Source: an uncultured archaeon
Lineage (GTDB): Archaea > Iainarchaeota > Iainarchaeia > Iainarchaeales > Iainarchaeaceae
Length of the DNA stretch: 25,874 bases
Direction: 5' to 3'
Assembly: GCA_964531875.1 (NCBI GenBank)
Contig: CAZHFT010000001.1
Coordinates: forward strand, 1 to 25,874
Made by a program: the position numbers and the translations under genes. Below, one piece after another: positions 12,038 through 25,874 of the stretch. Each line of letters starts with the position of its first letter. Position 1 is the stretch's first letter. The notes under the pieces were generated by a model. The model saw only the letters and a program-made list of their open reading frames with translations, ran no database searches and had not been told where the DNA came from.

Positions 12038-12624
12038 TTTTTCAACTCCTTTTTTTTATCCTTTTCTGTTGCTTTTTTAGTTGGTTTTTTTTCTATTTTT
12101 ATCCAATCTGATTTTCCAAGTCCTTCTTGTCTCATTGTTAATCCTATTTTTGAACTTGAAATTGTTCCTTTGAGACTTACAGTAACTATTCTTGCTTTTA
12201 CAACGTCTTTGGTGGTTAGTTTTCTTTTTGTTTCTTTTCCAACAAATCCTGGTAGTTTTGCATCGTAATTAATGTAATCATCCATTATTTGACTTACATG
12301 AATTAATCCTTCTAATGGCCCAGTTTTTATAAATGCTCCAAATTCAGTAACGTCGCTTATTTCTCCTTCTACGAGTTCATGTAACATTGGTTTGTACATT
12401 AGTACTTTAATGTCTGTTGCATAATATGCTGCTCCGTCTCCGGGAACTATTTTTCCGTCTCCTATTTTTTCTACTCCTGTTACGGTAACAACTACTCCCA
12501 TATCTTCATCAAGAACTCCTTCATAAACTTTTTTTGCGTTTTCAAGTATTGTCTTTTTGAGGTTTGTTCCTATGTCTGCAGGAGGGATTCTTATTGTATC
12601 AGTTATAGTATAATTTTTGTACAT
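12034..12624 (-). CDS. rpoE1: RNA polymerase subunit E' (Rpo7)
   Basis: IRIPP, GKIVPGDGAAY, S1 domain FGAFIKTGPLEGLIHVSQI and IGLTMRQEGLGK. Confidence 0.97.
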   Translation of the reverse strand: MYKNYTITDTIRIPPADIGTNLKKTILENAKKVYEGVLDEDMGVVVTVTGVEKIGDGKIVPGDGAAYYATDIKVLMYKPMLHELVEGEISDVTEFGAFIKTGPLEGLIHVSQIMDDYINYDAKLPGFVGKETKRKLTTKDVVKARIVTVSLKGTISSSKIGLTMRQEGLGKSDWIKIEKKPTKKATEKDKKKELKK

Positions 12625-12638
12625 TGTTTTTTCACCAC

Positions 12639-13019
12639 CTAAATAAGCTCAAGCATTTTTTTTTGTCTTAAGTATAATACCTTTCCATTTAATTCTCTTA
12701 CCTTATCTTTTAATTCTTTATCGTTTGTCGCAATTATTGCTTCTGGAGACATTTTTTTTAATGCTTCGTCTGCATTTCTTGCTTTTATTTCAATTATTTT
12801 TACTTTATTTTTTTCCATTAATTCCCTTGCTATATTTACTTCTTTTTTTAGTTTGTTTCCTTCTTTTGAAAGCCCTTCAAGTTCATTAATTACCTGTCTG
12901 GGAACAATGAATTCTACTTTGCCAAGCATTCTTTTTGATTCATGGAAAACATCTATTTTGAATCTTTCTATATTAAGAAGCATATTTGTATCCCAAGCAA
13001 TTTTACTTGCTGATACCAT
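12639..13019 (-). CDS. PIN-domain protein (Fcf1/Utp23-like, COG1412-type)
   Basis: DTN, VINEL, ADEA and ATNDKEL give four acidic PIN residues. Occupies the conserved position between eif2g and rpoE1. Start is ATG 13019 or 13040. Confidence 0.9.
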   Translation of the reverse strand: MVSASKIAWDTNMLLNIERFKIDVFHESKRMLGKVEFIVPRQVINELEGLSKEGNKLKKEVNIARELMEKNKVKIIEIKARNADEALKKMSPEAIIATNDKELKDKVRELNGKVLYLRQKKMLELI

Positions 13020-14205
13020 ATGCTCGTAACCTCCAACCATTTTGTTCTCTTTTACTTATTGCTACTTTTTGGTCTTTTTCAATTACACAATATGAACGTA
13101 ATGCAAATTCAAATGAATTTTTTCCAGAACTTTTTATTGCTTGTCCAATAATTGTACTTGTTCCTATTGCAAGAACTACGTAATCGTTTATTTTAATGCT
13201 TTCTTCATTTTTTTCAAGTAGTCTTTCAATTGGGTGTACTTCTAATTTAATTAAATTTGTTGGTTTTGGTAGTACTCCTGGTTTTGCAATCATTTGTCCT
13301 CTTAATTCATCATTTTTTGTGAAGAATGGGTCAAGTGTTGTTCCTACTGCAATTAGTCCTCCAGCATGTGCTTCTTCTAGCATTCCATTTTCTACTCCTA
13401 AACTAACTACTTCGGTTTCTATTGGTTTTCCATTTTCGCCGGGAGTAATTTCTATTTTATCTCCAATTTTTAGTGTTCCACAAATAATGCTTCCACCAAT
13501 TACTCCTCCTTTAATATTTTCTATTTTTGTTCCTGGTTTGTTAACATCAAAACTTCTTACAATGTACATTTTCATTAGTTTTTTCTTTTCTATTTTTGGA
13601 GTAACAATTTCTTTTTCAATTGCTTCTATTACTAAATCAATGTTAACCCCTTGGTTTGCAGAGATTGGGACTATTGGAGTATTTGTATAATTATATTTTT
13701 TTAAGAATGCAGTTATTTCATTATGGCTTTCTTTTGCTCTTTTCATGTCTACTAAGTCTATTTTGTTTTGTGCTACTACAATATTTTTTATTCCTGCTGA
13801 GCTTAATGCCATTAAATGTTCTGCTGTTCTTGGTTGTGGACATTTTTCATTTGCTGCAATTACAAGTACTGCTCCTTGCATTAATGCGGCTCCTGATAAC
13901 ATTGTAGCCATTAATGTTTCGTGTCCTGGAGCATCAACAAAAGAAACTTTTCTTATTGGAACTGCTTTTCCTGTTTCACATTTTCCTGTTGCATTGTAAG
14001 CTTCTGCTCCTTTTATTTTATCGCATTTGTAAAATGTTGCGTCAGCATAACCTAGTCTTATTGAAATTCCTTTTTTTAGTTCTTCACTATGAGTGTCAGC
14101 CCATTTTCCTGTTAATGTTTGAACTAATGAAGTTTTACCGTGGTCTACATGACCAATCATTCCAATATTGATTTCTGCTTGCTGTCCGAGTTTCTTTTTT
14201 GACAT
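13003..14205 (-). CDS. eif2g: Translation initiation factor aIF2 gamma
   Basis: GHVDHGKT, DTHSEELKKGISIRLGY, DAPGHE, NKID and RSFDVNKPG. Start is ATG 14205 or GTG 14214. Confidence 0.97.
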   Translation of the reverse strand: MSKKKLGQQAEINIGMIGHVDHGKTSLVQTLTGKWADTHSEELKKGISIRLGYADATFYKCDKIKGAEAYNATGKCETGKAVPIRKVSFVDAPGHETLMATMLSGAALMQGAVLVIAANEKCPQPRTAEHLMALSSAGIKNIVVAQNKIDLVDMKRAKESHNEITAFLKKYNYTNTPIVPISANQGVNIDLVIEAIEKEIVTPKIEKKKLMKMYIVRSFDVNKPGTKIENIKGGVIGGSIICGTLKIGDKIEITPGENGKPIETEVVSLGVENGMLEEAHAGGLIAVGTTLDPFFTKNDELRGQMIAKPGVLPKPTNLIKLEVHPIERLLEKNEESIKINDYVVLAIGTSTIIGQAIKSSGKNSFEFALRSYCVIEKDQKVAISKREQNGWRLRAYGISK

Positions 14206-14210
14206 TGGTT

Positions 14211-14684
14211 TCACTTTTTGATTTTTCCTTTAATATCTTTTGCTGCTGATGCATCAATTTTTCCAACATTTTCAAGAGATTTTTCTACTGCTTTTTCAGT
14301 AACTGATTTTTTCTCATCTTTGTGTTCTGCGTTTTCTCCGCCTAAAAGTTCTTCTAATTTTACTTTTCCTTCTTTGGTTATTTTGAGGTTTACTTGTGCG
14401 GTTTCATCACTAATTTCGTTTCCTCTTTTTGAAACTTTTTGTCTTATTCCTTTTTTAATATTTTTTACTAAATATAATTTTTTTCTGTTTATTCCTTCAA
14501 AATCATGTTTCATTGGAAATCCTTGCTTGTCTGAACCTCCAGTTATTATTGCTTTGTAGCCATCAAGTCCAATTAAACCTAATTCTACTTCGTTTCCTAT
14601 TTTTTTTCCTTTAAAAAAAGCATTATTTTCTATTGTTTTTGAATATGCTTTTTTTGTTTTTGGGTCTGACACTGATAGTTTCAT
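14211..14684 (-). CDS. rps6e: 30S ribosomal protein S6e
   Basis: SDPKT, GKKIG, ITGGSDKQGFPM and RGNEIS...QVNLKI. Confidence 0.96.
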   Translation of the reverse strand: MKLSVSDPKTKKAYSKTIENNAFFKGKKIGNEVELGLIGLDGYKAIITGGSDKQGFPMKHDFEGINRKKLYLVKNIKKGIRQKVSKRGNEISDETAQVNLKITKEGKVKLEELLGGENAEHKDEKKSVTEKAVEKSLENVGKIDASAAKDIKGKIKK

Positions 14685-14705
14685 TTAAAATTCCTCCAAT
14701 TTTTT

Positions 14706-16469
14706 TTAAGCTTCATTCCTCATTTTTTTTATTTCTTTTATTAATTCAAGTTCATCTGTTGTAAAAGAATCGCTTATTGTATCTAATTGTAAAAAATCTC
14801 TTTGGGGAATAAAACTATATAGCTTATCTTTTTCAAACAAATCTTTTTCAACTACTGCGTCATCTATTGAAACAGCTACTTCCATTCCTTTGATTGCTTC
14901 TTCAACAGCTTTTCCTTCTGATTGTATTGCTTGAACTTTTCCAATTACTTCTCCATTTTTCATTATTTTTGTTCCTTTTTTGAGTTTTCCTTCAAGAATT
15001 CTAACTCCTACTATTGCTGGTTTGCTGTGTCTAAAAACCATTCCTACCATAACTAAAAATTTGGATGGCATTGTTAAAGTTGATAATTTTTTATTTTTCT
15101 CCAAGTCTTTTTCTTCTTTTACCCATTCTTCATAATCTTCAAGGATTTTGTAAACAACATTACTTTCAAATATTTTCACGTTTCTTTTTTTTGCTTCAAT
15201 TTTTGCAGCTTCGCTAACCTTTGTGTGGAATGCAAAAATTACTCCTTTGTATTTATCTTTTTCTGCTACTGATTCTATTTCAAGAACATCTTTTCTTGGA
15301 ATTTCTCCAATGTCTGCTTTTTTTACTTTAATTCCTTTGTCTTCTAAAAGTTTTATTATTGCTTCAAGACTTCCAAGAGTATTACTTCTTACTATTGGGC
15401 CTATTGCATCGGATTCAATTTTTATGTTATGAATTTCGTCATTAATTTCTTTTTCATTTTCTTCTGAACAATGTCTTAGTGGAGAACCACTTATTGCATC
15501 ATCAAGATTTGGTGCAGAAATTTTTACTCCTGCTGCAGCGTGAATTTCTTTAATGTTATTAAATTTTTCATTTGGGTTTCCTTCGCCTACTGGTTTTGGT
15601 TCTAATAATGCTCGAATTTTGGTTTTAATGATTCCATTTTTTCCGCCTAAAATAATTTCTTCGCCTACTGTAAGCATTCCGTCATAAAGAATAACATCAA
15701 TTGTTTTACCTAATCCTCTTTCTTCATTTACTTCAAGTACTGTACCTTTACAAGTTCCTTTGTCATTTACTATTAGCTTTTTATCCAAGTATTTTTTTGA
15801 AATTGCTGATAAGAACATTAGTAGTTCTGGGATTCCAATGTCTTTTTTTGCTGATGTGGGAATAATAGTTACTTCTTTTGTAAAATCTGTTATTCTATCA
15901 AATCTTTCGCTTGCAAATCCTTGTTCATGTAATTGTCCAACTAATTCGTAAATTTTAATATCAAGTTGTTCTAAAACATCTTCTCTTTGTGTTTTTAAGT
16001 TTTCTGAAATACTTCCTTTTTCTACTACCCATCCTTGTAATGTATCAACTTTGTTTGCTACAACAATAAATGGACACTTGCAAGTTTTGAGTATGTCAAT
16101 TGCTTCTAATGTTTGATTTTGTAATCCTTTGTGAATATCTACTACTACAACTGCTAAATCAGCTATACTTCCGCCTCTTTTTCTTAGAGTAGTAAATGCT
16201 TCGTGTCCAGGAGTATCAATGAAAAGTAATCCTGGAATGTTTAAATTGAACTTAAATTTTTCAAGTAATTTTCCCGCTTGTTTTTGAATGATTTTTATTG
16301 GAACTTCTGTTGCTCCAATGTGTTGAGTAATTCCGCCTGCTTCTTTTTCTGCAATATTTGTTCCTCTAATTGAATCAAGAATTTTTGTTTTTCCTGCATC
16401 AACATGTCCAAGTACTGTAATAATTGGTTTTCGTAACGAAACATTTTCAGCGTTGTTTTCTTCATTCAT
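14706..16469 (-). CDS. infB: Translation initiation factor aIF5B (IF2)
   Basis: LRKPIITVLGHVDAGKT, EAGGITQHIGAT, FIDTPGHEAF, NKVD and GSLEA. Likely start is ATG 16469 after GTGA. Confidence 0.97.
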   Translation of the reverse strand: MNEENNAENVSLRKPIITVLGHVDAGKTKILDSIRGTNIAEKEAGGITQHIGATEVPIKIIQKQAGKLLEKFKFNLNIPGLLFIDTPGHEAFTTLRKRGGSIADLAVVVVDIHKGLQNQTLEAIDILKTCKCPFIVVANKVDTLQGWVVEKGSISENLKTQREDVLEQLDIKIYELVGQLHEQGFASERFDRITDFTKEVTIIPTSAKKDIGIPELLMFLSAISKKYLDKKLIVNDKGTCKGTVLEVNEERGLGKTIDVILYDGMLTVGEEIILGGKNGIIKTKIRALLEPKPVGEGNPNEKFNNIKEIHAAAGVKISAPNLDDAISGSPLRHCSEENEKEINDEIHNIKIESDAIGPIVRSNTLGSLEAIIKLLEDKGIKVKKADIGEIPRKDVLEIESVAEKDKYKGVIFAFHTKVSEAAKIEAKKRNVKIFESNVVYKILEDYEEWVKEEKDLEKNKKLSTLTMPSKFLVMVGMVFRHSKPAIVGVRILEGKLKKGTKIMKNGEVIGKVQAIQSEGKAVEEAIKGMEVAVSIDDAVVEKDLFEKDKLYSFIPQRDFLQLDTISDSFTTDELELIKEIKKMRNEA

Positions 16470-16483
16470 TAAAATCACTTATA

Positions 16484-16915
16484 TTATTCTAATCCTGTTG
16501 AACCAAATCCACCTTCTCCTCGAGTAGTTTCATCTAGTTCTTTTACTTCTTCAATTTCGGGTTCTTCAATTTTGTTAAATACCACTTGGCAAATTTTTTT
16601 ACCCTTTTCAATTAAGTATTCTTTTTCGCCTAAATTTGCGATTATTACTTTTATTTCGCCTCTGTATCCTGCGTCAATTGTTCCGGGAGTATTAAGTAAA
16701 GTAAGCCCGTGATTTATTGCGAGTCCACTTTTTGGTCTTATTTGTGCTTCGAATCCTTTTTCAAAAGAAATACTTATTCCTGTTCTAACAAGTGCTCTTT
16801 GCATTGGTTTTAGATTAATTTCTTCTATGCTGTAGAGGTCAAATCCTGCGTCGCCTTCATGTGCTATTTTTGGCACTTTTGCTTCTTCCACAAGTTTTTT
16901 GACCTTTACTTTCAA
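16484..16915 (-). CDS. dut: Trimeric dUTP diphosphatase
   Basis: All five motifs present: AGFDL, PKSG, GTIDAGYRGEI, ICQ and RGEGGFGSTG. TTG start with SD GGGAG. Confidence 0.96.
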   Translation of the reverse strand: MKVKVKKLVEEAKVPKIAHEGDAGFDLYSIEEINLKPMQRALVRTGISISFEKGFEAQIRPKSGLAINHGLTLLNTPGTIDAGYRGEIKVIIANLGEKEYLIEKGKKICQVVFNKIEEPEIEEVKELDETTRGEGGFGSTGLE

Positions 16916-16931
16916 ATTAATCTAACTCCCG

Positions 16932-17408
16932 TTATTTTTTTTCTCTTTCTGAATAAATTACATCAGTTAACAATCTTGGATAACTGAATAATTCATCTTT
17001 ATTGAAAAATCTCCAAATTTCTTTTTCTGCAGTTGCTTTACTGTCTGAAGCATGAATTATTGTGTTTTGAAGGCTTAGTGAAAAGTCTCCTCTTATTGTT
17101 CCGGGTAATGCTTCTGTTCCTTCTGTTACTCCAGCCATTTTTCTAACAACTTCAATTGCTTTTCGTCCTTGTAAAACAAGTAAAATACTTGGAGCTTTTT
17201 GCATGAAAGCTTTTATCTCTGGAAAAAATGGTTTTTTTGCTAAATGCGAATAATGTTCTTCTAATTTTGCATCAGAAAGATGATCCATTTTCATTCCAAT
17301 TAGTTGAATTCCTTTTCTTTCAAATCTATTTAGTACTTCTCCAATCATTCCTCTGTTTACTGCATCAGGTTTTATTATTACGAGTGTTTTTTCCATTTCG
17401 CTTGCCAT
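16932..17408 (-). CDS. ndk: Nucleoside diphosphate kinase
   Basis: EKTLVIIKPDAV, EHY, KPFF, PGTIRGDF and catalytic His in IIHASDS...EI. Confidence 0.97.
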   Translation of the reverse strand: MASEMEKTLVIIKPDAVNRGMIGEVLNRFERKGIQLIGMKMDHLSDAKLEEHYSHLAKKPFFPEIKAFMQKAPSILLVLQGRKAIEVVRKMAGVTEGTEALPGTIRGDFSLSLQNTIIHASDSKATAEKEIWRFFNKDELFSYPRLLTDVIYSEREKK

Positions 17409-17414
17409 TTTAAA

Positions 17415-17621
17415 TCACTCCTTTTTTTTCCCTCTTAGTTTTATTTCTTTATTTTTATGATAACTATTTGTCCATTTTGTTTTTCCAGGAGTTCTTTTTA
17501 GTTTAAGAAAATTTTTTTCAGATTTTTGATTCTTAAACCAATATGTAGTTCCGTCTTTTTTGACGTACATGTGTCCTGTTCCTTTAGGAATTTCTTCTCC
17601 GCTAAAATAATCAGTAGGCAT
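17415..17621 (-). CDS. rpl24e: 50S ribosomal protein L24e (zinc-free variant)
   Basis: FSGEEIPKGTGHMYVKKDG...KRTPGKTKWT, in the conserved position between rps28e and ndk. Confidence 0.94.
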   Translation of the reverse strand: MPTDYFSGEEIPKGTGHMYVKKDGTTYWFKNQKSEKNFLKLKRTPGKTKWTNSYHKNKEIKLRGKKKE

Positions 17622-17635
17622 CTTTGAATTTCCCC

Positions 17636-17842
17636 CTATTTAGCACGTATTTCTTTCGCTTCTCTTTCAGTAGAAAGCAAAATAACTACGTCTCCTTTTT
17701 TTATATTTCCTTTAATATTTCTTCTTTTTACTCTGCCTTGTTCGTGTCCATCAAGAATTTTACAAAGAACCTGTACTATTTCTCCATTAACTCCAGTTCT
17801 TCCCATGATTTGAACGACTTCAGCGGGTGTTCCTTTTTCCAT
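17636..17842 (-). CDS. rps28e: 30S ribosomal protein S28e
   Basis: PAEVVQIMGRTGVNGE...QV...RRNIKG...GD...LLSTEREA. Confidence 0.96.
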   Translation of the reverse strand: MEKGTPAEVVQIMGRTGVNGEIVQVLCKILDGHEQGRVKRRNIKGNIKKGDVVILLSTEREAKEIRAK

Positions 17843-17858
17843 TCTTAGTCACATTCCT

Positions 17859-18224
17859 TTATTTAGCTAGTCCTTGAAGTTTTTTTACTAAATCTTCTAA
17901 TTCTTTTTTAGTGTCTCCTGCATCAATTATTGCGATTGCAGCAGTTCCTATTGGAATTCCAACAAGAGCACCTAACTCTTTTTTTGTAGCAATGTAACTA
18001 ACAGGGATATTTTTTTCTTTACAAATTATTGGTAAGTGCATTACTATTTCTGGTGGAGAAACATCTTCAGCAATAACAATTAATTTTGCTGTTCCTCTTT
18101 CTGCACCTTTAGTAGCTTCGTTAGCACCTATTCTAATTTTTCCTGTTTTTCGTGCTTTTTCAAGAATTATTGCCTGTTTTTTTTTGAGTTCTTCAGGTAC
18201 ACTGAACTTAATATAATCCGCCAT
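17859..18224 (-). CDS. rpl7ae: 50S ribosomal protein L7Ae
   Basis: GKIRIGANEATK, ERG, IAEDVSPPEIVMHLP and ELGALVG. Strong SD GGAGGTG. Confidence 0.98.
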   Translation of the reverse strand: MADYIKFSVPEELKKKQAIILEKARKTGKIRIGANEATKGAERGTAKLIVIAEDVSPPEIVMHLPIICKEKNIPVSYIATKKELGALVGIPIGTAAIAIIDAGDTKKELEDLVKKLQGLAK

Positions 18225-18231
18225 AACTTAC

Positions 18232-18271
18232 ACCTCCTTATCCCTAAAAATAGGGAATCATCGTCATCGGC
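18232..18271 (-). promoter_or_regulatory. rpl7ae 5'-UTR kink-turn autoregulatory element
   Basis: GCC-GAU-GA-C pairs with G-GA-GGU (the SD itself) as a canonical K-turn. A second, non-canonical K-turn sits on the UCCCUA-UUUU-UAGGGA hairpin. Confidence 0.8.
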
Positions 18272-18316
18272 AAAAAAAGTATAATTTTACTAATAAAAAG
18301 AATCCCCCCGAAAGGC

Positions 18317-18324
18317 TTTAAAAA
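18317..18324 (-). promoter_or_regulatory. Putative TATA box of the rpl7ae superoperon
   Basis: TTTTTAAA on the minus strand, about 45 nt upstream of the K-turn element. Confidence 0.4.
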
Positions 18325-18386
18325 GTACTTATTTCACTAAAAAATTCTTTTTTTTTCAAAATTTTTGAGCTTGTTTAGTAATAAAA

Positions 18387-18394
18387 TTATATAG
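18387..18394 (+). promoter_or_regulatory. Putative TATA box of the giant protease gene
   Basis: TTATATAG preceded by A-rich BRE-like GTAATAAAA and about 22-29 nt before ATG 18416. No SD, so probably leaderless. Confidence 0.55.
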
Positions 18395-18415
18395 TTTGGC
18401 GTTTATTAATTTTGT

Positions 18416-21400
18416 ATGGATAATAAATTATTTTTTGCATTTTTTTTGGTTTTTTTGTTTGTTGGTTTTGGTTTTGCAAGCACTACGCCTAATGTTTTGT
18501 ATGATTGGAGTTGGAGTGGTGTTAGTGTTGATGCGTGTGAGGGTTCTAATGAAAAAGTTATTTTTTGTGATGCTACTCAATTTAGTATTTCTTTGTTAAA
18601 AAAGTTGAATTCTGTTTCTGCTGGTTCTTCTTTTGAATTTGATGCTTTTTTGATGGGTGATGGTTTTAGTCAAGATTTTAGAGAGGATTTTGATCATTAT
18701 TATTCTAATATTTCTTTTTTTGATTCTCCTTTTTTTTATATTAATGAAACTGATGGTTTAAGGCATTATTTTACCAGTTCTGATTTGTTTGTTTTTAAGT
18801 TAAATGGGGAATCTTGGGTTGATGGGGTTAAATTGGTTCCTGGGGAGTATAGGGTCAGTGTGGATGTTCCTATTGATTTTAATCCTGGTGTTCTTGGTGT
18901 TGAGTCAGTAGTTGTTGATTTTGAGTTTTTGTCTTCTCCCGAGGAAGAAAGTGCTTTGTTGTTTTTGCCTTTTGATGGGGAGATTGGTTTTTTTAATGGA
19001 GATAAAGATAGGGTTGGTTATGGAGTAGTTTTTTCTTCTGGTGGCGAAATTGCTTTGAATGATAAGGTTATTTTTGATAGTACTGTTAGTGGGGGTGTTG
19101 TTGAAGTTAGTGATTTTGTTTTTGTTGATGATTTTGTTGAGTTGAATGATTTTTATAAGAAAAAGCAGTTGTTGAAGATTGTTGATAATGAAGGCGATTT
19201 TTCTTTTGAGTTTTCTTCTTCTGTTCCTACTCCTGTTTTTTTAGAAGTAAATAAAGTGTCTGATGAAAAAGAGTTTAGTGTTTTTTATAATATTTTTAGT
19301 GCGTCTGGTGCAACTGTTAATTTGGACAGGGATTATTTTTTGGTTTGGGATTCTGCTTTAGAAAAGTGTGCTGATTTGTCTGGAGCAAATATGACCGATA
19401 AGTTCATTGATTTTTTTGATAGGTTTGCTGAAGGGGAAGGATTGGATAGGGGTAATGTTTTTGCTGTTGATTGGGCGGATTCTTCTGCTGATGGAAAGGT
19501 TGTTGTCGAATCGGTTGTTTATCGTAATGGCGAGCAGGATAAGTTTTATTTGAATTTGTTTGATTTGGAGGAGGGGGTTTCTTCTGTTTTTTATTCTCCT
19601 TTTGATTTGGGGGAAAAGATTTTTTTGAGTGGTTCTGGAAATGAGTTAGTTGATTCTAAGTCTAAGAGTCTTTTTGATTTGATTAAGTTGGTGGAGCGGG
19701 GTTTTGTTGAGGTTGTTGTTGAGGATAATGTTACGGTTTTTCAGTGGAATGAGGTTGCGTTAAGAAATTTATTGAGTGATAAAAGAGATGATTTTGAAGC
19801 TGAGTGTATTCCTGTTCCTGAACAAAACCAACCTGATGTTAATGGCAGTTACTTTCCTTATTATGTTCTTACACAAGATGATTTGATTCCTTCTTCCCTT
19901 GCGACAAATCTTCCTGAATTTGATGTTGACGACCTTGTTGATTTTGAGCTTGTTTATTCTTCTGAAAATGATGTGACAGTTACTGGGGCTTATTTGCTTG
20001 ATGCTAAGGGCAAGGTTAAAGCGATTGGTGATGCGAATGCTCAGCTTGCATTTTTATTGAATTCTGCTTCTGCAGAATCTTCTGAATCAAGTTCGTCTTC
20101 TGAGAAAGGATTTTTTTCAGGAATCCTTAATTTTTTCAGGAATATATTTACTGCTATTTCTAATTTTTTTAGTAATTTGTTTTCAGGGGGAAGTGAACCA
20201 AGTGTTAATGCAGTTGATTTGGAAGTAACTTCTTCTGGAAATGGGATTTATGTTTTGTTTGAAGATGGTTCTTTAAAAGTTGCTGGTGAAGCCCAGGTAT
20301 TAAACTCCGAGGTCATTAAAGACGCGGTTGATTTGGAGTTAATTATTCAAAAGGACACAGTAGTTGGGTATCGCGTTTTGGATAAAGAAGGAATTTTAAG
20401 GGGAGTTATGGGAAAGTCACAGGTAGCCACAGAGGATTTTGGTACTTCTTCTTTTGAGTACGCTGTTGATTTTGAATCTTCTGTTTCTGGGTTTTTTGTT
20501 CTTTTCTCAGGGGGAACAATTAAACAAATTGGTGGTTCTCCGATAAGTGTAGCAGTCAAGGGAAAAGCAGTAGACCTAGAGTTTTTTGAGGGTGAAATGT
20601 ATGTGTTAGATTCTTTTGGTAACATTCAGGGGGTTGATGGTGCGCCTCCAATTGCAGGCCAATTAATCCACATTTTTGATTCAAAAAAAGCAAAAGCATT
20701 GGAGTTTGTTGGATTAAATGAAGTTTCTGCAGAAGAAGATATTGAAGTTTCAATTGCGACTTTAAAAGATAGTTATATGGTTGGGGAAGTAATAGGATTA
20801 ACAGACCCTCCTGAGCAGGAAATTACTGATGCTGAACAAGTTTTTTATGGGAGTGGTTTGGTTTTATCAACTACTAATTTTGAAACTCCGCAGCAAAATG
20901 AGGGGTATATTGTTAAACTTAAAGATAAATCTATAATTGAGAAAAAAGTTGAGTTAGATGCTCAAGGTAATATTAGTAAAAGTAGTATTTCTGCTAATCT
21001 TGATATTCATGAGCAAAATCTTTTAGATGAACATTCTGCTTTTAAGTATAAAATGAATCAAGTTTTGAGTAAGGGGCTGAAAAAAACAGGGTCTGTAGTG
21101 GTAAAAAGAGAGTATATTAAAGTGTTCAATGGTTTTGCACTTGATATTGATGATGCGACTGCATTGGAACTAAAGTTACTTGACGAAGTTGAGGAAATTT
21201 ACCCTAATTATGCTGTTGAAGCTGTTTTGATGGATTCAGTTCCACAAATTCAAGGTGGAGTTTCAGCAGGGCAATTAGGTGCTAATGGAGATAATTGTAC
21301 TGTTAGTGGCGAGGAATGTTTGACTGGGGAAGGAGTTACAATTGCGATAATTGATACTGGGATTGATTATACTCATCCTGATTTGGGAGGGTGTTTTGGT

Positions 21401-24400
21401 GCAGGTTGTAAAATTATTGGAGGTTACGACTTTGTTAATGATGATGCTGATCCAATGGACGACCATGGACACGGAACGCATTGTGCAGGAATTGCGGCGG
21501 GAAATGGTGTGCTGAAAGGAGTTGCTCCTGAGGCTAAAATATATGCTTATAAAGTCCTTGACAACGGCGGTTCTGGAAATTGGGATGAGATAATTGCGGC
21601 AATCGAAAGAGCAGTTGACCCAAATCAAGATGGGGATTTTACCGACCATGTAGATATTATTAGTTTGAGTTTAGGAGGGGCAGGAAATTCTGATGACGCA
21701 ATTAGTATTGCAGTAGATAATGCTGTTGATGCCGGCGTTGTTGCAGTTATTGCTGCTGGAAATAGCGGCTCTAATGAACGGACTATCGGTAGCCCTGGAA
21801 CTGCGAGGAAAGCGATAACCGTAGGAGCAATAGATGGCGCCGATTATATGGCGAATTTTAGCTCAAGGGGTCCTGTGGTCTGGATTAATACAATAGGAAT
21901 TGAAAAAGCGATTATAAAACCAGACATTGTTGCTCCTGGATTTGAAATCTGTTCTGCTCAGTGGGAGGATGCATGGATTGATACTGAATGCATTGACAGT
22001 GAACACACTGCGATTTCCGGAACATCCATGGCAACTCCTCATGTTGCAGGAGCAGTTGCTTTAATTAAGCAGAAAAATTCTGATTGGAGTCCTGCAGAGA
22101 TTAAATCTGTTTTAATGGGAACTGCTGAAGATATTGGTTATGAAGTTATTACTCAGGGGGCAGGGAAAGTCAATGTTCCAGATACTTTAAGAGTAAATCA
22201 AAAGCCGTTAATTGCAGAATTAAATGTTGAGAATTATGCGGTTTCAGGTATTATTAATATTAGTGGAATTGCTAAAGGCGAAGCGTTTGAAAAATTTGAT
22301 GTTTACTATTCAAAGAAAGATGAAACAGAAGAAAAGTGGGAATTAATTTGTTCAGGAACAAGCCAAGTTGATACTGGGGTTTTATGTCGTGGGTTTGATA
22401 CTTCGATACTTGAACAAGGGGAATATATGCTTAAATTAAGTGTTAATGGAAATCAATTTTCAACATCTACTTATGGACTTGTTAGATTTAATAATTTTGA
22501 AATAATTTCTGTTGGAAAAAACCAAGGGTATCTAAATGGCTATACTGATATTTTAGGTGAAATTAAATTAAAGGAATATGACGCATATAAAATTATTTTT
22601 GATAATCCTGAGCAGGAAGAACAGGAATTATGTTTTGTAAATGGGAAAGCAACTACTGAAATTCTTTGTTCTTTTGATTTTAGCCAGTTGTCTGATGGAA
22701 AATATTATTTGAAACTTTTAATATCAAAAGAAGGGGTTTGGGTGGGCAGTGAAACAATTCCGATTGCCGTGATACAAAATTTAATGGATGGTTGGCCTGT
22801 GCATAATTCTTGTAATGGGAGTAATGTACTTTCACCTATAAAAATTGATGGAGTGCCTAAAATTTTTAGTGCTGATCCACGTGAATGTTATCCTGGGTGG
22901 TCACTTGGTGGAAAAATTATTTCTTATGATAATTTCACAAATAAAACTGTGCTTTATGAACTTTTTAAAGATGGACAGAACATTACAAATACAAATCATA
23001 TGTCGGGTCGCCTAATTTCTACATTAGATCAAAAACTTGCTCTTTCTTCACTCTCTAAATATATTGGAGTTGTTGATGATAGTGGGAATTTTGTTGATAA
23101 CTGGCCATATGAAATTGATGACTTTGAAGGTATTTACGAGGGGGCTGTTGGTTCGTTTATTATAAGTGAAAATAATCTTTTCAGTGTGAGAGTAATAAGT
23201 ACAAACCAGTTGTTTGATGGATTAAGTTTGTATAAATTTGATAAAAAAGGGAATTTATTGTATAATGTTCCTATTGAAAAAGAAGAAGGTTTTGAAGAAT
23301 GGGCGATTTCTTCTGCAGGGGGAATTTTGATTGAAGACGATGGAAAGGAGTATATTGGTTTGATGGTAGCTTTATTCAATAATTGGGGTGATTTAAATGG
23401 GAAGCTGTTCTTTGATATTTATTCTGTTTCTGATGGAAAAAGAATTAAAAGATCTCTTCTTCATGATGGCTTGGATAAAAAAATAAATTATCAAGGGTTT
23501 TCTTTTACTTCAGGGGATTTGGATGGTGATGGCAGTGACGAAATTGCTGTGGGTTACATGGTTTTGGATTTGGATAAATTTAATGAAGATAGATATAATC
23601 TTGATGCCTATGAAAGCCATTTGAAAATTTTGGATTCAACTGGCAATATTCTTTCTGATATTTATAACATAAAGGGGTACTTCCTCAACAAGATTCGTAT
23701 TGGACGTTTAAACACCAAAAATCCAGTTATTATATTTCATTTAGAGGATACTTGGCCTACTACTTATGACGGTCAAAGAATTGTCGGAGTAAATCTTCAA
23801 GGAGACATTTTAGTCGATATTAATTTAGAAGATCATACTCATTTAGTAGAAGGATTGAGTATTGGCGATGTTACAGGAGACTCAAAACAAGATATCGTTA
23901 TTGCATATCGTCCTCGGTGGTGGATGGAGAATCCCTCTGGAATTCTTATTTATGACGGAAAGGGAAATTTAGAAAAAGAAATTTTAATCCCGACTTTCGG
24001 AACTGCAGAACAACTAGGATGGGGAAACGATCCTTTATTGACTGATTTTGATTTAGATGGGAAAGTTGACATTATTTTAAAAACTCTCCACCTTCAAAAA
24101 AACACTAGTGACACTTGGCAATCTAATATTTTTGTTTTTGAAACAAATACTCCTTATGATTCTTCGACGATGGAATGGCCAATGTTTCAACATGATCCTC
24201 AGTATACTGGGCGTTACACAAAACCATTACCTCAATCAAAAATAGTAAACAACGCTGAGGAGGATGTTTCAGGTTTGCTGAGTTTTAAATTACTGAAGCT
24301 TGATGGGGGCAGTTGGAATGATTATACTACAGTTCATGAACAACAGGTCACTATTCCTGCAAATGATTTAATTAAGTTAGATGTTGGAAATAGTGAATTT

Positions 24401-25874
24401 CCCGGTTTTAATAATCTCGGTGTGAAAGTGAATGAACCTGGCGAGTACAAGGTTGTTGTTTCTTTCACCGTCAATGGAGCAGATTATGAAAGTGAGTGGG
24501 AGTTTTCAGTAGAGAAAGCGCTGATTGCTGTTTGTGGGAATAGCATTTGTGAGGAAGGTGAGACTCCTGAGAATTGTGTGGAGGATTGTGGTGTTCCTCT
24601 TAGAGAAAACAAAAAAGACATGAGCAAGTATTCAGAAAAAGAGGCTTTCCTGATTTCCGATAAGGATTGGAGAAGCGTTCTTTCTCTTGTGCCTGTTACT
24701 ACTTGGACAACTAGAGAGGGCGAAATTGAAAAATATCCTTCTCTAGTGTTCCATGAAGAAGATGCTGAAGACCGAGTTTTGACTTTGGATAAACAATTAC
24801 TTTTGAATGATGTAAGAATGACTTTTCGTTATATTAGTCCTCTTATTTTTGAGGAAAGACCTAATAGTAAAAGTTTTGAATATTCTTTTGATGTTCCTGA
24901 GAGAGCTTGGGAATATATGAATAATTCTGATGTTCATGGTTCTACTAACGGAATTCTAATAAAATTTAAGATTAAAACAGAAACCGAATTCTATGGTGAT
25001 ATGAATCCTTTTATTGCTGCTTTTAAGGAACACTTAATTTTAAATGGGTGCCCTGTTTCTGTTCCTGGTTCAGGTGCTGGTTATGGGTTTAAGGGAGATG
25101 TGCTTGATTTAACTCTATATATTACTTTTGACTATAGCGATGTAGAGTTATTTGAATTTGGAAATTTAATGACTTTAGAAGAGTTTGATGATGAACATTA
25201 TTTGATTGAAGAATTGAAAATTTACCCTGAACCATATTATATGAATAATATTGGAGAGGGATTTGAAAATCTCACAGTTAGAGTAGGGGACGAGTGTAAT
25301 AATGATTGGGTAGAGTTTTGTATTACTGATGTTCAATTTGATAAGCAAACGGTTTTGCCAGGAGAAGAATTTAGTTATACTTATTCAATTCAAAATATAA
25401 CAAGTTCAACTATTGATTTATTGTCTGAAAATCAAGATTTTGAAATATATGTGTTTGAACCTTTGGACAATTTAAAAGTTGGGAATATTAGTTTTCCAAG
25501 TAGGATAGTTGAGCCAGGTGAAACAACTTCAGTTACAATTAATACCTTGTATAATGCTTCTTTAGATTATTCCTTTGATGCTGATTCAGTTTTTCATTTT
25601 TTACGACAATATTCTCCTGAGGAATTAACTATAGTGGGAGAAACAACCCCTGATTTTGATAATCTTATTATTTCTCCTAGTGGAGCTGATTTGAGTGAAG
25701 GTGTAGTTCAAATAATTGATTCCGCTGATTATTTCTCGTTTTGGTTATCTTTTGAAGACATTGTTTTTGTTCATAGTGAAAACTATAAAGATGCCTTAGT
25801 GGCATCAACGTTTGCATCATCTTTAAATGCACCGCTGGTTTTTTTGGATGAATCCAATATGGCTAATTATTATA
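18416..25874 (+). CDS. Giant secreted multidomain S8A (Vpr-like) serine protease/adhesin, >2486 aa, 3' end outside window
   Basis: Hand translation found no stop from ATG 18416 to the window end. Signal peptide MDNKLFFAFFLVFLFVGFGFA; I9-like propeptide (GYIVKLK...EYIKVFNGFAL); catalytic Asp (IAIIDTG, 21353), His (HGHGTH, 21470), oxyanion Asn (AAGNSG, 21761) and Ser (GTSMATPH, 22025). Also FG-GAP motifs, WPMFQHDPQYTG, CGNSICEEGETPENCVEDC and CWB2-like NYKDALVASTFASSLNAPLVFL. Confidence 0.93.
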   Translation, partial: MDNKLFFAFFLVFLFVGFGFASTTPNVLYDWSWSGVSVDACEGSNEKVIFCDATQFSISLLKKLNSVSAGSSFEFDAFLMGDGFSQDFREDFDHYYSNISFFDSPFFYINETDGLRHYFTSSDLFVFKLNGESWVDGVKLVPGEYRVSVDVPIDFNPGVLGVESVVVDFEFLSSPEEESALLFLPFDGEIGFFNGDKDRVGYGVVFSSGGEIALNDKVIFDSTVSGGVVEVSDFVFVDDFVELNDFYKKKQLLKIVDNEGDFSFEFSSSVPTPVFLEVNKVSDEKEFSVFYNIFSASGATVNLDRDYFLVWDSALEKCADLSGANMTDKFIDFFDRFAEGEGLDRGNVFAVDWADSSADGKVVVESVVYRNGEQDKFYLNLFDLEEGVSSVFYSPFDLGEKIFLSGSGNELVDSKSKSLFDLIKLVERGFVEVVVEDNVTVFQWNEVALRNLLSDKRDDFEAECIPVPEQNQPDVNGSYFPYYVLTQDDLIPSSLATNLPEFDVDDLVDFELVYSSENDVTVTGAYLLDAKGKVKAIGDANAQLAFLLNSASAESSESSSSSEKGFFSGILNFFRNIFTAISNFFSNLFSGGSEPSVNAVDLEVTSSGNGIYVLFEDGSLKVAGEAQVLNSEVIKDAVDLELIIQKDTVVGYRVLDKEGILRGVMGKSQVATEDFGTSSFEYAVDFESSVSGFFVLFSGGTIKQIGGSPISVAVKGKAVDLEFFEGEMYVLDSFGNIQGVDGAPPIAGQLIHIFDSKKAKALEFVGLNEVSAEEDIEVSIATLKDSYMVGEVIGLTDPPEQEITDAEQVFYGSGLVLSTTNFETPQQNEGYIVKLKDKSIIEKKVELDAQGNISKSSISANLDIHEQNLLDEHSAFKYKMNQVLSKGLKKTGSVVVKREYIKVFNGFALDIDDATALELKLLDEVEEIYPNYAVEAVLMDSVPQIQGGVSAGQLGANGDNCTVSGEECLTGEGVTIAIIDTGIDYTHPDLGGCFGAGCKIIGGYDFVNDDADPMDDHGHGTHCAGIAAGNGVLKGVAPEAKIYAYKVLDNGGSGNWDEIIAAIERAVDPNQDGDFTDHVDIISLSLGGAGNSDDAISIAVDNAVDAGVVAVIAAGNSGSNERTIGSPGTARKAITVGAIDGADYMANFSSRGPVVWINTIGIEKAIIKPDIVAPGFEICSAQWEDAWIDTECIDSEHTAISGTSMATPHVAGAVALIKQKNSDWSPAEIKSVLMGTAEDIGYEVITQGAGKVNVPDTLRVNQKPLIAELNVENYAVSGIINISGIAKGEAFEKFDVYYSKKDETEEKWELICSGTSQVDTGVLCRGFDTSILEQGEYMLKLSVNGNQFSTSTYGLVRFNNFEIISVGKNQGYLNGYTDILGEIKLKEYDAYKIIFDNPEQEEQELCFVNGKATTEILCSFDFSQLSDGKYYLKLLISKEGVWVGSETIPIAVIQNLMDGWPVHNSCNGSNVLSPIKIDGVPKIFSADPRECYPGWSLGGKIISYDNFTNKTVLYELFKDGQNITNTNHMSGRLISTLDQKLALSSLSKYIGVVDDSGNFVDNWPYEIDDFEGIYEGAVGSFIISENNLFSVRVISTNQLFDGLSLYKFDKKGNLLYNVPIEKEEGFEEWAISSAGGILIEDDGKEYIGLMVALFNNWGDLNGKLFFDIYSVSDGKRIKRSLLHDGLDKKINYQGFSFTSGDLDGDGSDEIAVGYMVLDLDKFNEDRYNLDAYESHLKILDSTGNILSDIYNIKGYFLNKIRIGRLNTKNPVIIFHLEDTWPTTYDGQRIVGVNLQGDILVDINLEDHTHLVEGLSIGDVTGDSKQDIVIAYRPRWWMENPSGILIYDGKGNLEKEILIPTFGTAEQLGWGNDPLLTDFDLDGKVDIILKTLHLQKNTSDTWQSNIFVFETNTPYDSSTMEWPMFQHDPQYTGRYTKPLPQSKIVNNAEEDVSGLLSFKLLKLDGGSWNDYTTVHEQQVTIPANDLIKLDVGNSEFPGFNNLGVKVNEPGEYKVVVSFTVNGADYESEWEFSVEKALIAVCGNSICEEGETPENCVEDCGVPLRENKKDMSKYSEKEAFLISDKDWRSVLSLVPVTTWTTREGEIEKYPSLVFHEEDAEDRVLTLDKQLLLNDVRMTFRYISPLIFEERPNSKSFEYSFDVPERAWEYMNNSDVHGSTNGILIKFKIKTETEFYGDMNPFIAAFKEHLILNGCPVSVPGSGAGYGFKGDVLDLTLYITFDYSDVELFEFGNLMTLEEFDDEHYLIEELKIYPEPYYMNNIGEGFENLTVRVGDECNNDWVEFCITDVQFDKQTVLPGEEFSYTYSIQNITSSTIDLLSENQDFEIYVFEPLDNLKVGNISFPSRIVEPGETTSVTINTLYNASLDYSFDADSVFHFLRQYSPEELTIVGETTPDFDNLIISPSGADLSEGVVQIIDSADYFSFWLSFEDIVFVHSENYKDALVASTFASSLNAPLVFLDESNMANYY

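What the first reader, a model, noticed from the sequence alone, without database searches (positions are those of the whole stretch)
19934..20712. Beta-propeller repeats with a 25-residue amphipathic Phe-rich helix inserted between blades 1 and 2
The repeat [AL]VD[LF]E-x(3-10)-G-[aromatic]-x-L-[DF]-xx-G-x-[VIL]-xxx-G starts at 19934, 20210, 20324, 20462 and 20567, with a partial copy at 20690. Between the first two copies lie a Ser-rich linker (SASAESSESSSSSEK) and GFFSGILNFFRNIFTAISNFFSNLF (20108-20182). That segment has FF/IL/IF pairs in helical periodicity. I associate such helices with C-terminal membrane anchors of surface proteins (recollection). Here it is internal and would loop out of a propeller, so it may insert into its own or a host membrane.
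Basis: partly seen in the sequence, partly recalled or inferred. Interest (0 to 1): 0.62.

Follow-up and report, generated by a model that had tools for sequence, protein, structure and literature searches.

The report
Amphipathic helix inserted in archaeal repeat domain
A giant secreted protease of an uncultured salt-lake archaeon has a five-repeat beta domain carrying an inserted 25-residue, extremely amphipathic, phenylalanine-rich helix on flexible tethers; a sister strain's copy of the domain lacks it, so it is a recent add-on that most likely sticks the protein to a membrane, which is untested.

Summary
Window 19934-20815 lies in a + strand ORF of more than 2,486 aa: signal peptide, a conserved DPANN giant-protein domain, this repeat module, an I9-S8 subtilase, then FG-GAP repeats. 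The motif [AL]VD[LF]E occurs 5 times against 0.03 expected. Each repeat is recovered by a profile built from the other four.

The helix (aa 565-589) is perfectly segregated. Its hydrophobic moment is 0.67 over 25 residues, reached by 0 of 10,000 shuffles. It is too polar to span a membrane.

A 96.5%-identical sister contig (L012) carries the same module, collinear and 34% identical, inside an esterase. That copy has no Ser-rich linker and no long helix, so the 52-aa segment is a lineage-specific insertion at the repeat 1/2 boundary. A third, rare variant keeps the insert. Its four substitutions preserve the amphipathic pattern.

The propeller fold is plausible but unproven: AlphaFold confidence is below 50 and there is no Pfam or PDB match. 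Membrane binding is inferred from chemistry and from analogy with the Nup133 inter-blade ALPS loop and the PROPPIN 6CD loop.

Verdict: a real feature and a new variant of a known kind. Its function is untested.

The parts
18416..25873 (+). Giant ORF (more than 2,486 aa; runs off the window end): secreted, acidic (pI 4.25) surface protease/adhesin
   Evidence: An independent Logan contig of run X1 (6,287 nt) covers 18300-21000 with no differences.
18416..18481 (+). Sec-type signal peptide MDNKLFFAFFLVFLFVGFGFAS (or an uncleaved N-terminal anchor)
   Evidence: Highest Kyte-Doolittle window in the protein, 2.29. Read from the sequence; cleavage is inferred.
18482..19834 (+). Conserved domain of about 450 aa found in giant DPANN proteins; no Pfam family
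   Evidence: 445 representatives at E<=1e-3. C-terminal in 138 of the 150 best hits. AF2 pLDDT about 85-95. No fold match.
19934..20053 (+). Repeat 1 (aa 507-546)
20054..20209 (+). Lineage-specific 52-aa insertion at the R1/R2 boundary (aa 547-598)
   Evidence: Absent from the homologous module of L012.
20063..20107 (+). Ser-rich flexible linker SASAESSESSSSSEK
20108..20182 (+). 25-residue amphipathic helix GFFSGILNFFRNIFTAISNFFSNLF. It contains two 11-codon units: ILNFFRNIFTA, and ISNFFSNLFSG, which runs 6 nt past the helix into the linker.
   Evidence: muH 0.668. The two units share 22 of 33 nt, P=4e-4. Helical in both AF2 models. KD19 of 0.96 means it is not a transmembrane segment. Wimley-White interfacial sum is -7.9 kcal/mol.
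20183..20209 (+). Gly/Ser/Pro linker SGGSEPSVN
20210..20323 (+). Repeat 2
20324..20461 (+). Repeat 3
20462..20566 (+). Repeat 4
20567..20689 (+). Repeat 5
20690..20815 (+). Degenerate or partial repeat 6 (AKALEFV...)
   Evidence: Not found by the profile, but collinear with VVDFEFL of L012.
20906..21220 (+). Peptidase inhibitor I9 propeptide (aa 831-935)
   Evidence: Pfam E=2.4e-6
21326..22147 (+). Peptidase S8 catalytic domain, with DTG (980), HGTH (1019) and GTSMA (1202) intact
   Evidence: Pfam E=8.4e-64; motifs
19208..19208 (.). End of the 96.5% nucleotide identity with sister contig L012. The strain-specific part of the gene, including the whole finding, starts here.
   Evidence: X11 contig 7 diverges at 19208. 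Contigs from X1 and X2 cross it with no differences.

Best explanation
Window 19934-20815 encodes a lineage-restricted beta-rich module of five repeats plus a degenerate sixth, probably a small beta-propeller. It lies between a conserved DPANN giant-protein domain and an I9-S8 subtilase, in a secreted acidic surface protein of more than 2,486 aa. The organism is an uncultured, probably DPANN-type, archaeon from a salt lake.

A 52-aa segment has been inserted exactly at the boundary of repeats 1 and 2: a Ser-rich tether, a 25-residue helix, and a Gly/Ser/Pro tether. The helix was lengthened by duplicating an 11-codon (three-turn) unit, which keeps the two faces in phase. One face has 14 bulky residues, 9 of them Phe. 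The other face has only Ser, Asn, Thr and Gly plus one Arg.

The most likely mechanism is an interfacial, in-plane membrane-binding helix. It would be unfolded on its tethers in solution and fold on a lipid surface. Binding would be driven by hydrophobic insertion rather than charge. It would hold this part of the protein on a membrane, either the cell's own outer leaflet or the host cell's membrane. With two hydrophobic residues per turn it should bind strongly and promiscuously, not act as a fine curvature sensor.

The self-cleaving I9 propeptide lies downstream. The helix could therefore be the only membrane tether of the N-terminal fragment of about 940 aa after maturation.

Shown: the repeats, the insertion, the amphipathicity, the non-transmembrane character and the secretion signal. 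Inferred: the propeller fold, exposure of the helix, membrane binding and I9 cleavage.
For: - Repeats.
- Insertion: the L012 homologue is hit by the repeat profile at E=8.4e-17 and by phmmer at 1.4e-11. It is collinear and 34% identical, and lacks the linker and the long helix.
- Amphipathicity: muH 0.668, 0 of 10,000 shuffles, perfect 180-degree segregation with the peak at 98 degrees.
- Rarity: best window in the protein and in the whole window, and unmatched in 282 kb of related giant proteins.
- Not a transmembrane segment (KD19 0.96), yet the second most interface-seeking 25-mer after the signal peptide (Wimley-White -7.9 kcal/mol).
- Flexible low-complexity tethers on both sides.
- Duplication of the 11-codon unit: 22 of 33 nt against a background of 10.3, P=4e-4.
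- A rare, roughly 6%-diverged variant in run X11 keeps the insert in frame. Its changes are N576G, F578V, T579N and A580T plus 2 synonymous. Every change keeps the residue class, and muH is 0.671.
- The polar face is uncharged like an ALPS motif, and paired hydrophobic residues make such helices promiscuous membrane binders (PMC6164224).
- Structural precedent: the Nup133 ALPS motif sits in the loop between strands 3D and 4A of its propeller and is needed for liposome binding (PMC7695694). PROPPIN/Atg18 inserts an amphipathic propeller loop into membranes (PMC9809942).
- Both AF2 models call the segment helical, at low pLDDT, as expected for a conditionally folded element.
Against: - There is no experiment and no confident structure. 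The helix could be buried or pack against protein.
- The insert is known only from this strain and one close variant, in a strain-specific part of the gene. Conservation evidence is therefore thin: short contigs at depth 2-3, with only part of their differences listed.
- Known ALPS, Nup133 and PROPPIN helices are cytosolic and eukaryotic. An extracellular archaeal case facing ether lipids has no precedent that I found.
- The very dense Phe face would equally favour protein-protein burial.
- The low-GC, T-rich genome readily yields Phe/Asn/Ile codons; the helix is 21% GC and 55% T.
- The C-terminus of the protein is outside the window, so other anchors are unknown.
Confidence: 0.45

Rival explanations
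1. Protein-protein element. The Phe-rich face is buried in an oligomer (a Phe-zipper-like bundle joining several copies of the giant protein), or it docks intramolecularly onto a hydrophobic groove of the repeat module, the conserved N-terminal domain or the protease.
For: The hhxxhhx pattern, with 14 of 25 residues hydrophobic, gives a face wider than most lipid-binding helices. Such a face is hard to leave exposed. The neighbouring N-terminal domain is itself 11% Phe.
Against: The helix is short (3.5 heptads). Its Ser/Gly/Pro tethers suggest a mobile element. AF2 places it with pLDDT about 40 and gives no confident contact. The homologous L012 module works without it.
Confidence: 0.2
2. A neutral or nearly neutral insertion. 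T-rich DNA arose by slippage or duplication in a hypervariable surface-protein gene, is tolerated in a loop, and is amphipathic partly because an 11-codon unit was duplicated.
For: The segment lies in the strain-specific part of the gene, beyond the homology break at 19208. No homologue of the helix was found in the large protein searches. The helix is 21% GC and 55% T. The 33-nt duplication inflates the periodicity.
Against: No shuffle reaches the observed moment, and segregation is perfect within each 11-mer as well. The diverged variant keeps the frame and the residue class at all four replacements. The ORF stays open for more than 7.4 kb in a 31-35% GC sequence. The same sequence occurs in at least 10 metagenome runs from 2017-2019.
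Confidence: 0.15
3. A proteolytically released or unmasked membrane-active peptide. Cleavage in the tethers, for example after Lys564 just before GFFSGI, by the protein's own S8 domain or another protease would free the helix. Alternatively it would expose the helix at a new N-terminus, where it would perturb or fuse a target (host) membrane, as class I viral fusion peptides or amphibian-type lytic peptides do.
For: An active-looking subtilase is in the same polypeptide. A basic residue directly precedes a Gly-Phe-Phe start. The chemistry resembles Gly/Phe-rich interfacial peptides (my recollection, not tested). DPANN-host contacts have been proposed to involve membrane fusion, with the molecular basis unknown (PMC11329633).
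Against: There is no evidence of cleavage. One Lys is weak evidence for a site. Net charge is only +1. No homologous system is known.
Confidence: 0.1
4. Adhesion to a hydrophobic surface other than a membrane, such as an insoluble substrate, the S-layer, or a lipid or polymer particle. The repeat module would be a targeting domain for secreted hydrolases.
For: In L012 the same module sits between a BD-FAE esterase and a PAF-AH/PETase-like hydrolase, and here next to a protease. So the module travels with secreted hydrolases.
Against: The esterase copy, which would need such adhesion most, lacks the helix. The chemistry does not distinguish between kinds of surface.
Confidence: 0.1

Closest known systems
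Nup133 ALPS motif in the DA34 loop of its N-terminal beta-propeller (PMC7695694)
   Same: An amphipathic helix with a largely uncharged polar face sits in a disordered loop between consecutive repeats of a beta-repeat domain. In Nup133 that loop is required for liposome binding.
   Different: Nup133 is eukaryotic, cytosolic and seven-bladed, its loop is about 20 residues, and there is no sequence similarity. Here the protein is archaeal and secreted, the fold is unproven, the helix is longer, the hydrophobic face is much denser (2 per turn, 9 Phe), and the polar face is rich in Asn.
PROPPIN (Atg18/Hsv2/WIPI) 6CD-loop amphipathic helix (PMC9809942)
   Same: A propeller loop folds into an amphipathic helix on the membrane and inserts.
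   Different: In PROPPINs the loop lies within a blade (strands C-D) and works together with phosphoinositide sites. Nothing comparable is seen here, and there is no homology.
ALPS motifs, 'condensed' ALPS variants and the ARF1-type helix (PMC6164224)
   Same: The polar face consists of small uncharged residues, and binding is expected to be driven by the hydrophobic effect. Paired bulky residues resemble the condensed or ARF1 type, which binds membranes regardless of curvature.
   Different: Classical ALPS motifs have sparse hydrophobic residues and a Ser/Thr/Gly face. This helix has 14 of 25 residues hydrophobic and four Asn. It is also extracellular.
11-mer-repeat lipid-binding helices (apolipoproteins, alpha-synuclein, perilipins)
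   Same: The helix has 11-residue (three-turn) periodicity. The moment peaks at 98 degrees, which equals 3 x 360/11, and an 11-codon unit was duplicated.
   Different: There are only about 2.3 units against many. The polar face is uncharged rather than Lys/Glu-rich, and the hydrophobic residues are far bulkier.
Giant surface proteins of DPANN archaea, e.g. the nanohaloarchaeal 'SPEARE' proteins (PMC10266531)
   Same: A very large, acidic, Sec-exported, strain-variable surface protein thought to mediate host contact. The N-terminal domain here is shared with hundreds of giant proteins; the relatives that carry a source name come from Diapherotrites and Micrarchaeota.
   Different: No homology to SPEARE proteins was tested or found. 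This protein has a bona fide I9-S8 protease, whereas the protease assignment in SPEARE proteins is disputed in that paper.
Class I viral fusion peptides (recollection; stated in words only)
   Same: A Gly/Phe-rich amphipathic interfacial segment directly follows a basic residue.
   Different: There is no evidence of cleavage, of a coiled-coil refolding machine, or of homology. The segment is internal and lies between beta repeats.

Membership tests
beta-propeller (structural class) | 4-10 tandem sequence repeats of about 35-50 residues | tested here: met
   Five repeats of 35-46 aa plus a degenerate sixth. Confirmed by leave-one-out profiles and by collinearity with L012.
beta-propeller (structural class) | Each repeat forms a four-stranded antiparallel sheet, and the ring is closed | tested here: inconclusive
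   The AF2 models show 3-4 strands per repeat, but pLDDT is below 50 for nearly the whole region and reaches about 73 in only one short stretch. The conserved extra first-strand motif after repeat 5 would fit a velcro closure (inference).
beta-propeller (structural class) | Similarity to a known propeller family or structure | tested here: not met
   No Pfam or NCBIfam hit even at E<=10. No PDB sequence hit with single sequences or repeat profiles. Foldseek on the low-confidence model returns almost only WD40-type propellers, but at TM about 0.2 and E about 1e-3.
ALPS motif | Amphipathic helix of about 20-40 residues | tested here: met
   25 residues, muH 0.668.
ALPS motif | Polar face of small uncharged residues (Ser/Thr/Gly) with almost no charge | tested here: met
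   The polar face has 4 Ser, 1 Thr, 2 Gly, 4 Asn and 1 Arg, and no acidic residue. The Asn content is atypical.
ALPS motif | Sparse bulky hydrophobic residues (about one per turn), which give curvature sensitivity | tested here: not met
   There are two per turn, 14 of 25. This corresponds to the 'condensed', promiscuous type described in PMC6164224.
ALPS motif | Binding to liposomes that depends on curvature or packing defects | not testable with these tools
   Requires a liposome assay.
Nup133-type inter-blade membrane loop | The helix lies in the loop joining two consecutive blades | tested here: inconclusive
   The insertion lies exactly at a sequence-repeat boundary. Whether that is a blade boundary cannot be told without a structure.
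Nup133-type inter-blade membrane loop | Homology to Nup133 | tested here: not met
   No PDB sequence match. The protein is archaeal and secreted.
Transmembrane segment | About 19 residues with mean Kyte-Doolittle hydropathy of roughly 1.6 or more | tested here: not met
   The maximum is 0.96, against 2.29 for the signal peptide.
Subtilase with I9 propeptide (the host protein) | Peptidase_S8 domain with Asp/His/Ser motifs, preceded by Inhibitor_I9 | tested here: met
   Pfam S8 E=8.4e-64 and I9 E=2.4e-6. DTG at 980, HGTH at 1019 and GTSMA at 1202.

The most novel reading that the evidence does not exclude
The tethered helix is the membrane-engaging tip of a host-contact machine of a DPANN-type archaeon. 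It would be an extracellular, archaeal analogue of propeller-loop membrane anchors, convergently evolved. It may be unmasked by the protein's own subtilase, in the manner of a fusion peptide, and would insert into the host cell's membrane to anchor, perforate or fuse it.
Probability: 0.15. Interest if true: 0.8.

Novelty: new variant of a known kind. Interest (0 to 1): 0.5.

Why it matters
How ultra-small DPANN archaea attach to and breach their hosts' membranes is an open question (PMC11329633). Giant, strain-variable surface proteins are the usual suspects, but no membrane-engaging element has been pinned down in them.

This finding offers a short peptide that can be synthesised. It also offers a natural comparison: two strains about 96.5% identical over the shared flank, one with the helix and one without. 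That makes the idea directly testable.

The finding also defines a new repeat module with no Pfam or PDB relatives. The module moves between secreted hydrolases within a flexible genomic island.

Tried and rejected
Searches that found nothing:
- Pfam and NCBIfam on the region.
- PDB sequence searches with the region and with 5- and 10-repeat profiles. The E=2e-8 hit to 8h2i 'P22' is a sum of 14 sub-threshold matches to a 13-residue stretch, so I rejected it.
- The search for homologous proteins with aa 476-795, with the repeat profile and with the helix.
- Genome contigs with the region and with the two-sequence alignment.
- The first metagenome scan.
- The exhaustive representative search. 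Its 150 listed hits all match only the N-terminal domain, and none carries the repeats. The 295 unlisted hits could not be inspected.

Structure prediction:
- AF2 single sequence: pLDDT 35.
- AF2 with the 31-sequence alignment improved only the N-terminal domain.
- Foldseek against PDB and BFVD gave no match for that domain.

Ideas rejected:
- DNA tandem repeat: TRF finds none.
- Transmembrane segment.
- Phase-variable poly-T tracts: the window has 84 runs of T7 or longer, so they are nothing special.
- Assembly chimera at 19208: contigs from X1 and X2 cross it cleanly.
- The argument that a salt-in halophile would favour an uncharged helix: cytoplasmic proteins here have a pI of 5.4-9.3, so the proteome is not acidic.
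- Recurrence of such helices in relatives: only the P0002 tail.
- RNA genes: none.
Full report
**Context.** The window is a low-GC (about 31%) archaeal chromosome fragment. Positions 1 to about 18,200 carry housekeeping genes on the minus strand: a class I tRNA synthetase, DnaJ, DnaK, GrpE, Kae1, Sua5, RpoE, aIF2-gamma, aIF5B, Ndk, L24e, S28e and L7Ae. No close genome exists among species representatives; the best aIF5B match is 53% identical, to an unclassified archaeal MAG. The sequence occurs in many salt-lake metagenome runs.

From ATG 18416 a single + strand ORF runs off the window end, giving more than 2,486 aa. Its layout is:
- a signal peptide;
- a conserved domain of about 450 aa with no Pfam family;
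- the region of the finding;
- Inhibitor_I9 (aa 831-935) and Peptidase_S8 (aa 971-1244, catalytic motifs intact);
- FG-GAP repeats;
- a weak CWB2-like end.

The product is acidic (pI 4.25), whereas cytoplasmic proteins are not.

**Check of the observation.** The motif [AL]VD[LF]E occurs five times, only at aa 507, 599, 637, 683 and 718. The expectation is 0.03 per shuffle, and none of 20,000 shuffles reached five. Profiles built from four repeats recover the fifth at the correct place (i-E 1e-3 to 1e-8), with nothing comparable elsewhere in the protein.

The helix at aa 565-589 has muH 0.668 over 25 residues and <H> 0.81, with a sharp peak at 98-100 degrees. None of 10,000 shuffles reaches it. 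All 14 hydrophobic residues lie in one 180-degree arc. The other arc holds 4 Ser, 4 Asn, 1 Thr, 2 Gly and 1 Arg. It is the most amphipathic window in the protein and in any long ORF of the window. Nothing in 282,438 residues of related giant proteins equals it. It is too polar to span a membrane (KD19 0.96). It is still the second most interface-seeking 25-mer after the signal peptide (Wimley-White sum -7.9 kcal/mol; scale values from established literature). Two 11-codon units share 22 of 33 nt (P=4e-4), which indicates growth by a three-turn duplication.

**Search for relatives.** Large protein searches with the region, the repeat profile and the helix found nothing. Pfam, NCBIfam and PDB found nothing either. 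The exhaustive search found 445 relatives, but only of the N-terminal domain. None of the 150 listed proteins contains the repeats.

The breakthrough came from fetching the contig of the closest of those hits. Locus L012 is 96.5% identical to window 12617-19208, and its housekeeping proteins are 97.5-99.3% identical. All nucleotide similarity then stops at 19208, inside the giant gene. In L012 the gene ends early, giving a 362-aa protein with a transmembrane anchor. The next gene encodes a 1,139-aa protein with this layout:
- a class III signal peptide;
- a BD-FAE esterase;
- the same repeat module;
- a PAF-AH/PETase-like hydrolase.

The window's repeat profile hits that protein at E=8.4e-17. 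Repeats 2-5 and the partial sixth copy align collinearly at 34% identity. The start-to-start distance from repeat 1 to repeat 2 is 52 aa in L012 and 92 aa in the window. L012 has no Ser-rich linker and no long helix.

Independent contigs from runs X1 and X2 cross position 19208 and the helix without differences, so the arrangement is not an assembly artefact. Both alleles occur in salt-lake metagenomes, and six runs hold both.

**A third allele.** Run X11 contains short low-depth contigs about 6% diverged from the window across the linker and helix. The insert is present and in frame. The listed changes in the helix are N576G, F578V, T579N and A580T plus two synonymous changes. Each replacement keeps the residue class, and muH is 0.671. 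This is modest evidence of constraint. The contigs are short, and differences near their ends are not listed.

**Fold.** Both AlphaFold models predict 3-4 beta strands per repeat and a helix at aa 563-590. Confidence in this region is low. Foldseek with the poor model returns almost only WD40-type propellers, but at TM about 0.2. A propeller is therefore plausible and unproven. A sequence-repeat boundary need not be a blade boundary.

**Mechanism.** The chemistry matches an interfacial membrane-binding helix: an uncharged small polar face, a bulky aromatic face, and flexible tethers. Its polar face resembles an ALPS motif. Its hydrophobic face has two residues per turn, as in 'condensed' ALPS or ARF1-type helices, which bind membranes regardless of curvature (PMC6164224).

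The closest architectural precedents are two:
- the Nup133 ALPS motif, in the loop between strands 3D and 4A of its propeller, whose replacement by a Gly-Ser linker abolishes liposome binding (PMC7695694);
- the PROPPIN 6CD loop (PMC9809942).

Both precedents are cytosolic and eukaryotic. This protein is secreted and archaeal, and I found no description of an ALPS-like element in archaea.

The I9 propeptide lies downstream, and subtilases normally cleave after it (established knowledge; not tested here). The helix could therefore keep the N-terminal fragment on a membrane. The rivals are listed with their tests: protein-protein burial, a neutral T-rich insertion, a released or unmasked membrane-active peptide, and adhesion to other hydrophobic surfaces.

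**Verdict.** The feature is real and statistically extreme. It is a lineage-specific insertion in a new repeat module of a strain-variable giant surface protease. Membrane binding is the best-supported reading (about 0.45) but rests on analogy. It is a new variant of a known kind, namely a propeller-loop or tethered amphipathic membrane helix. Interest is moderate. It would be high if the helix proved to engage host membranes, given that the basis of DPANN-host membrane contact is unknown (PMC11329633; PMC10266531).

Noticed in passing
window 18482-19834 (aa 23-473 of the giant ORF): A conserved domain of about 450 aa with no Pfam family has 445 relatives at E<=1e-3. In 138 of the 150 best hits it sits at the extreme C-terminus of proteins of 2,000-3,000 aa. 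The named sources are Diapherotrites/Iainarchaeum and Micrarchaeota. AF2 with a 31-sequence alignment gives pLDDT about 85-95, yet Foldseek finds no PDB or BFVD fold match, so it may be a new fold. Here it is N-terminal instead.
   Followed up: partly
window 19208; L012 1-6585: Nucleotide identity of 96.5% with a sister contig ends abruptly inside the surface-protein gene. Downstream, the two strains carry entirely different gene content: a giant protease here, and a 362-aa anchored protein plus an esterase in L012. It looks like a flexible genomic island for cell-surface proteins. Both alleles occur in salt-lake metagenomes, and six runs hold both.
   Followed up: partly
L012 6975-10394: A 1,139-aa protein with an archaeal class III (pilin-type) signal peptide, a BD-FAE esterase, the repeat module and a PAF-AH/PETase-like hydrolase. 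This is an unusual two-hydrolase secreted enzyme in a probable DPANN archaeon.
   Followed up: partly
P0002 (MCR4334930.1), last 16 residues: Another archaeal protein ends 17 residues after the same conserved domain, with a strongly amphipathic aromatic tail ILGDIINWFVSIFS (muH 0.65). It may be a C-terminal in-plane anchor. Whether the protein is complete was not checked.
   Followed up: no
window 24533-24604 (aa 2040-2063); P0001 C-terminal part: A Cys-rich motif, CGNSICEEGETPENCVEDCG, recurs as CNGNGVCDFGENEKNCPQDC in the sister strain's short protein. It appears to be a small disulfide-knot module shared by these surface proteins.
   Followed up: no
window about 18000-18400: GC skew flips from negative to strongly positive where gene orientation switches: all upstream genes are on the minus strand and the giant gene is on the plus strand. 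This probably reflects coding-strand purine bias. The region between L7Ae (ending at 18224) and ATG 18416 is a divergent intergenic region.
   Followed up: no
window 20040-20269, run X11: Low-depth contigs reveal a third allele of the linker and helix region that is about 6% diverged. Only part of its differences could be read.
   Followed up: partly
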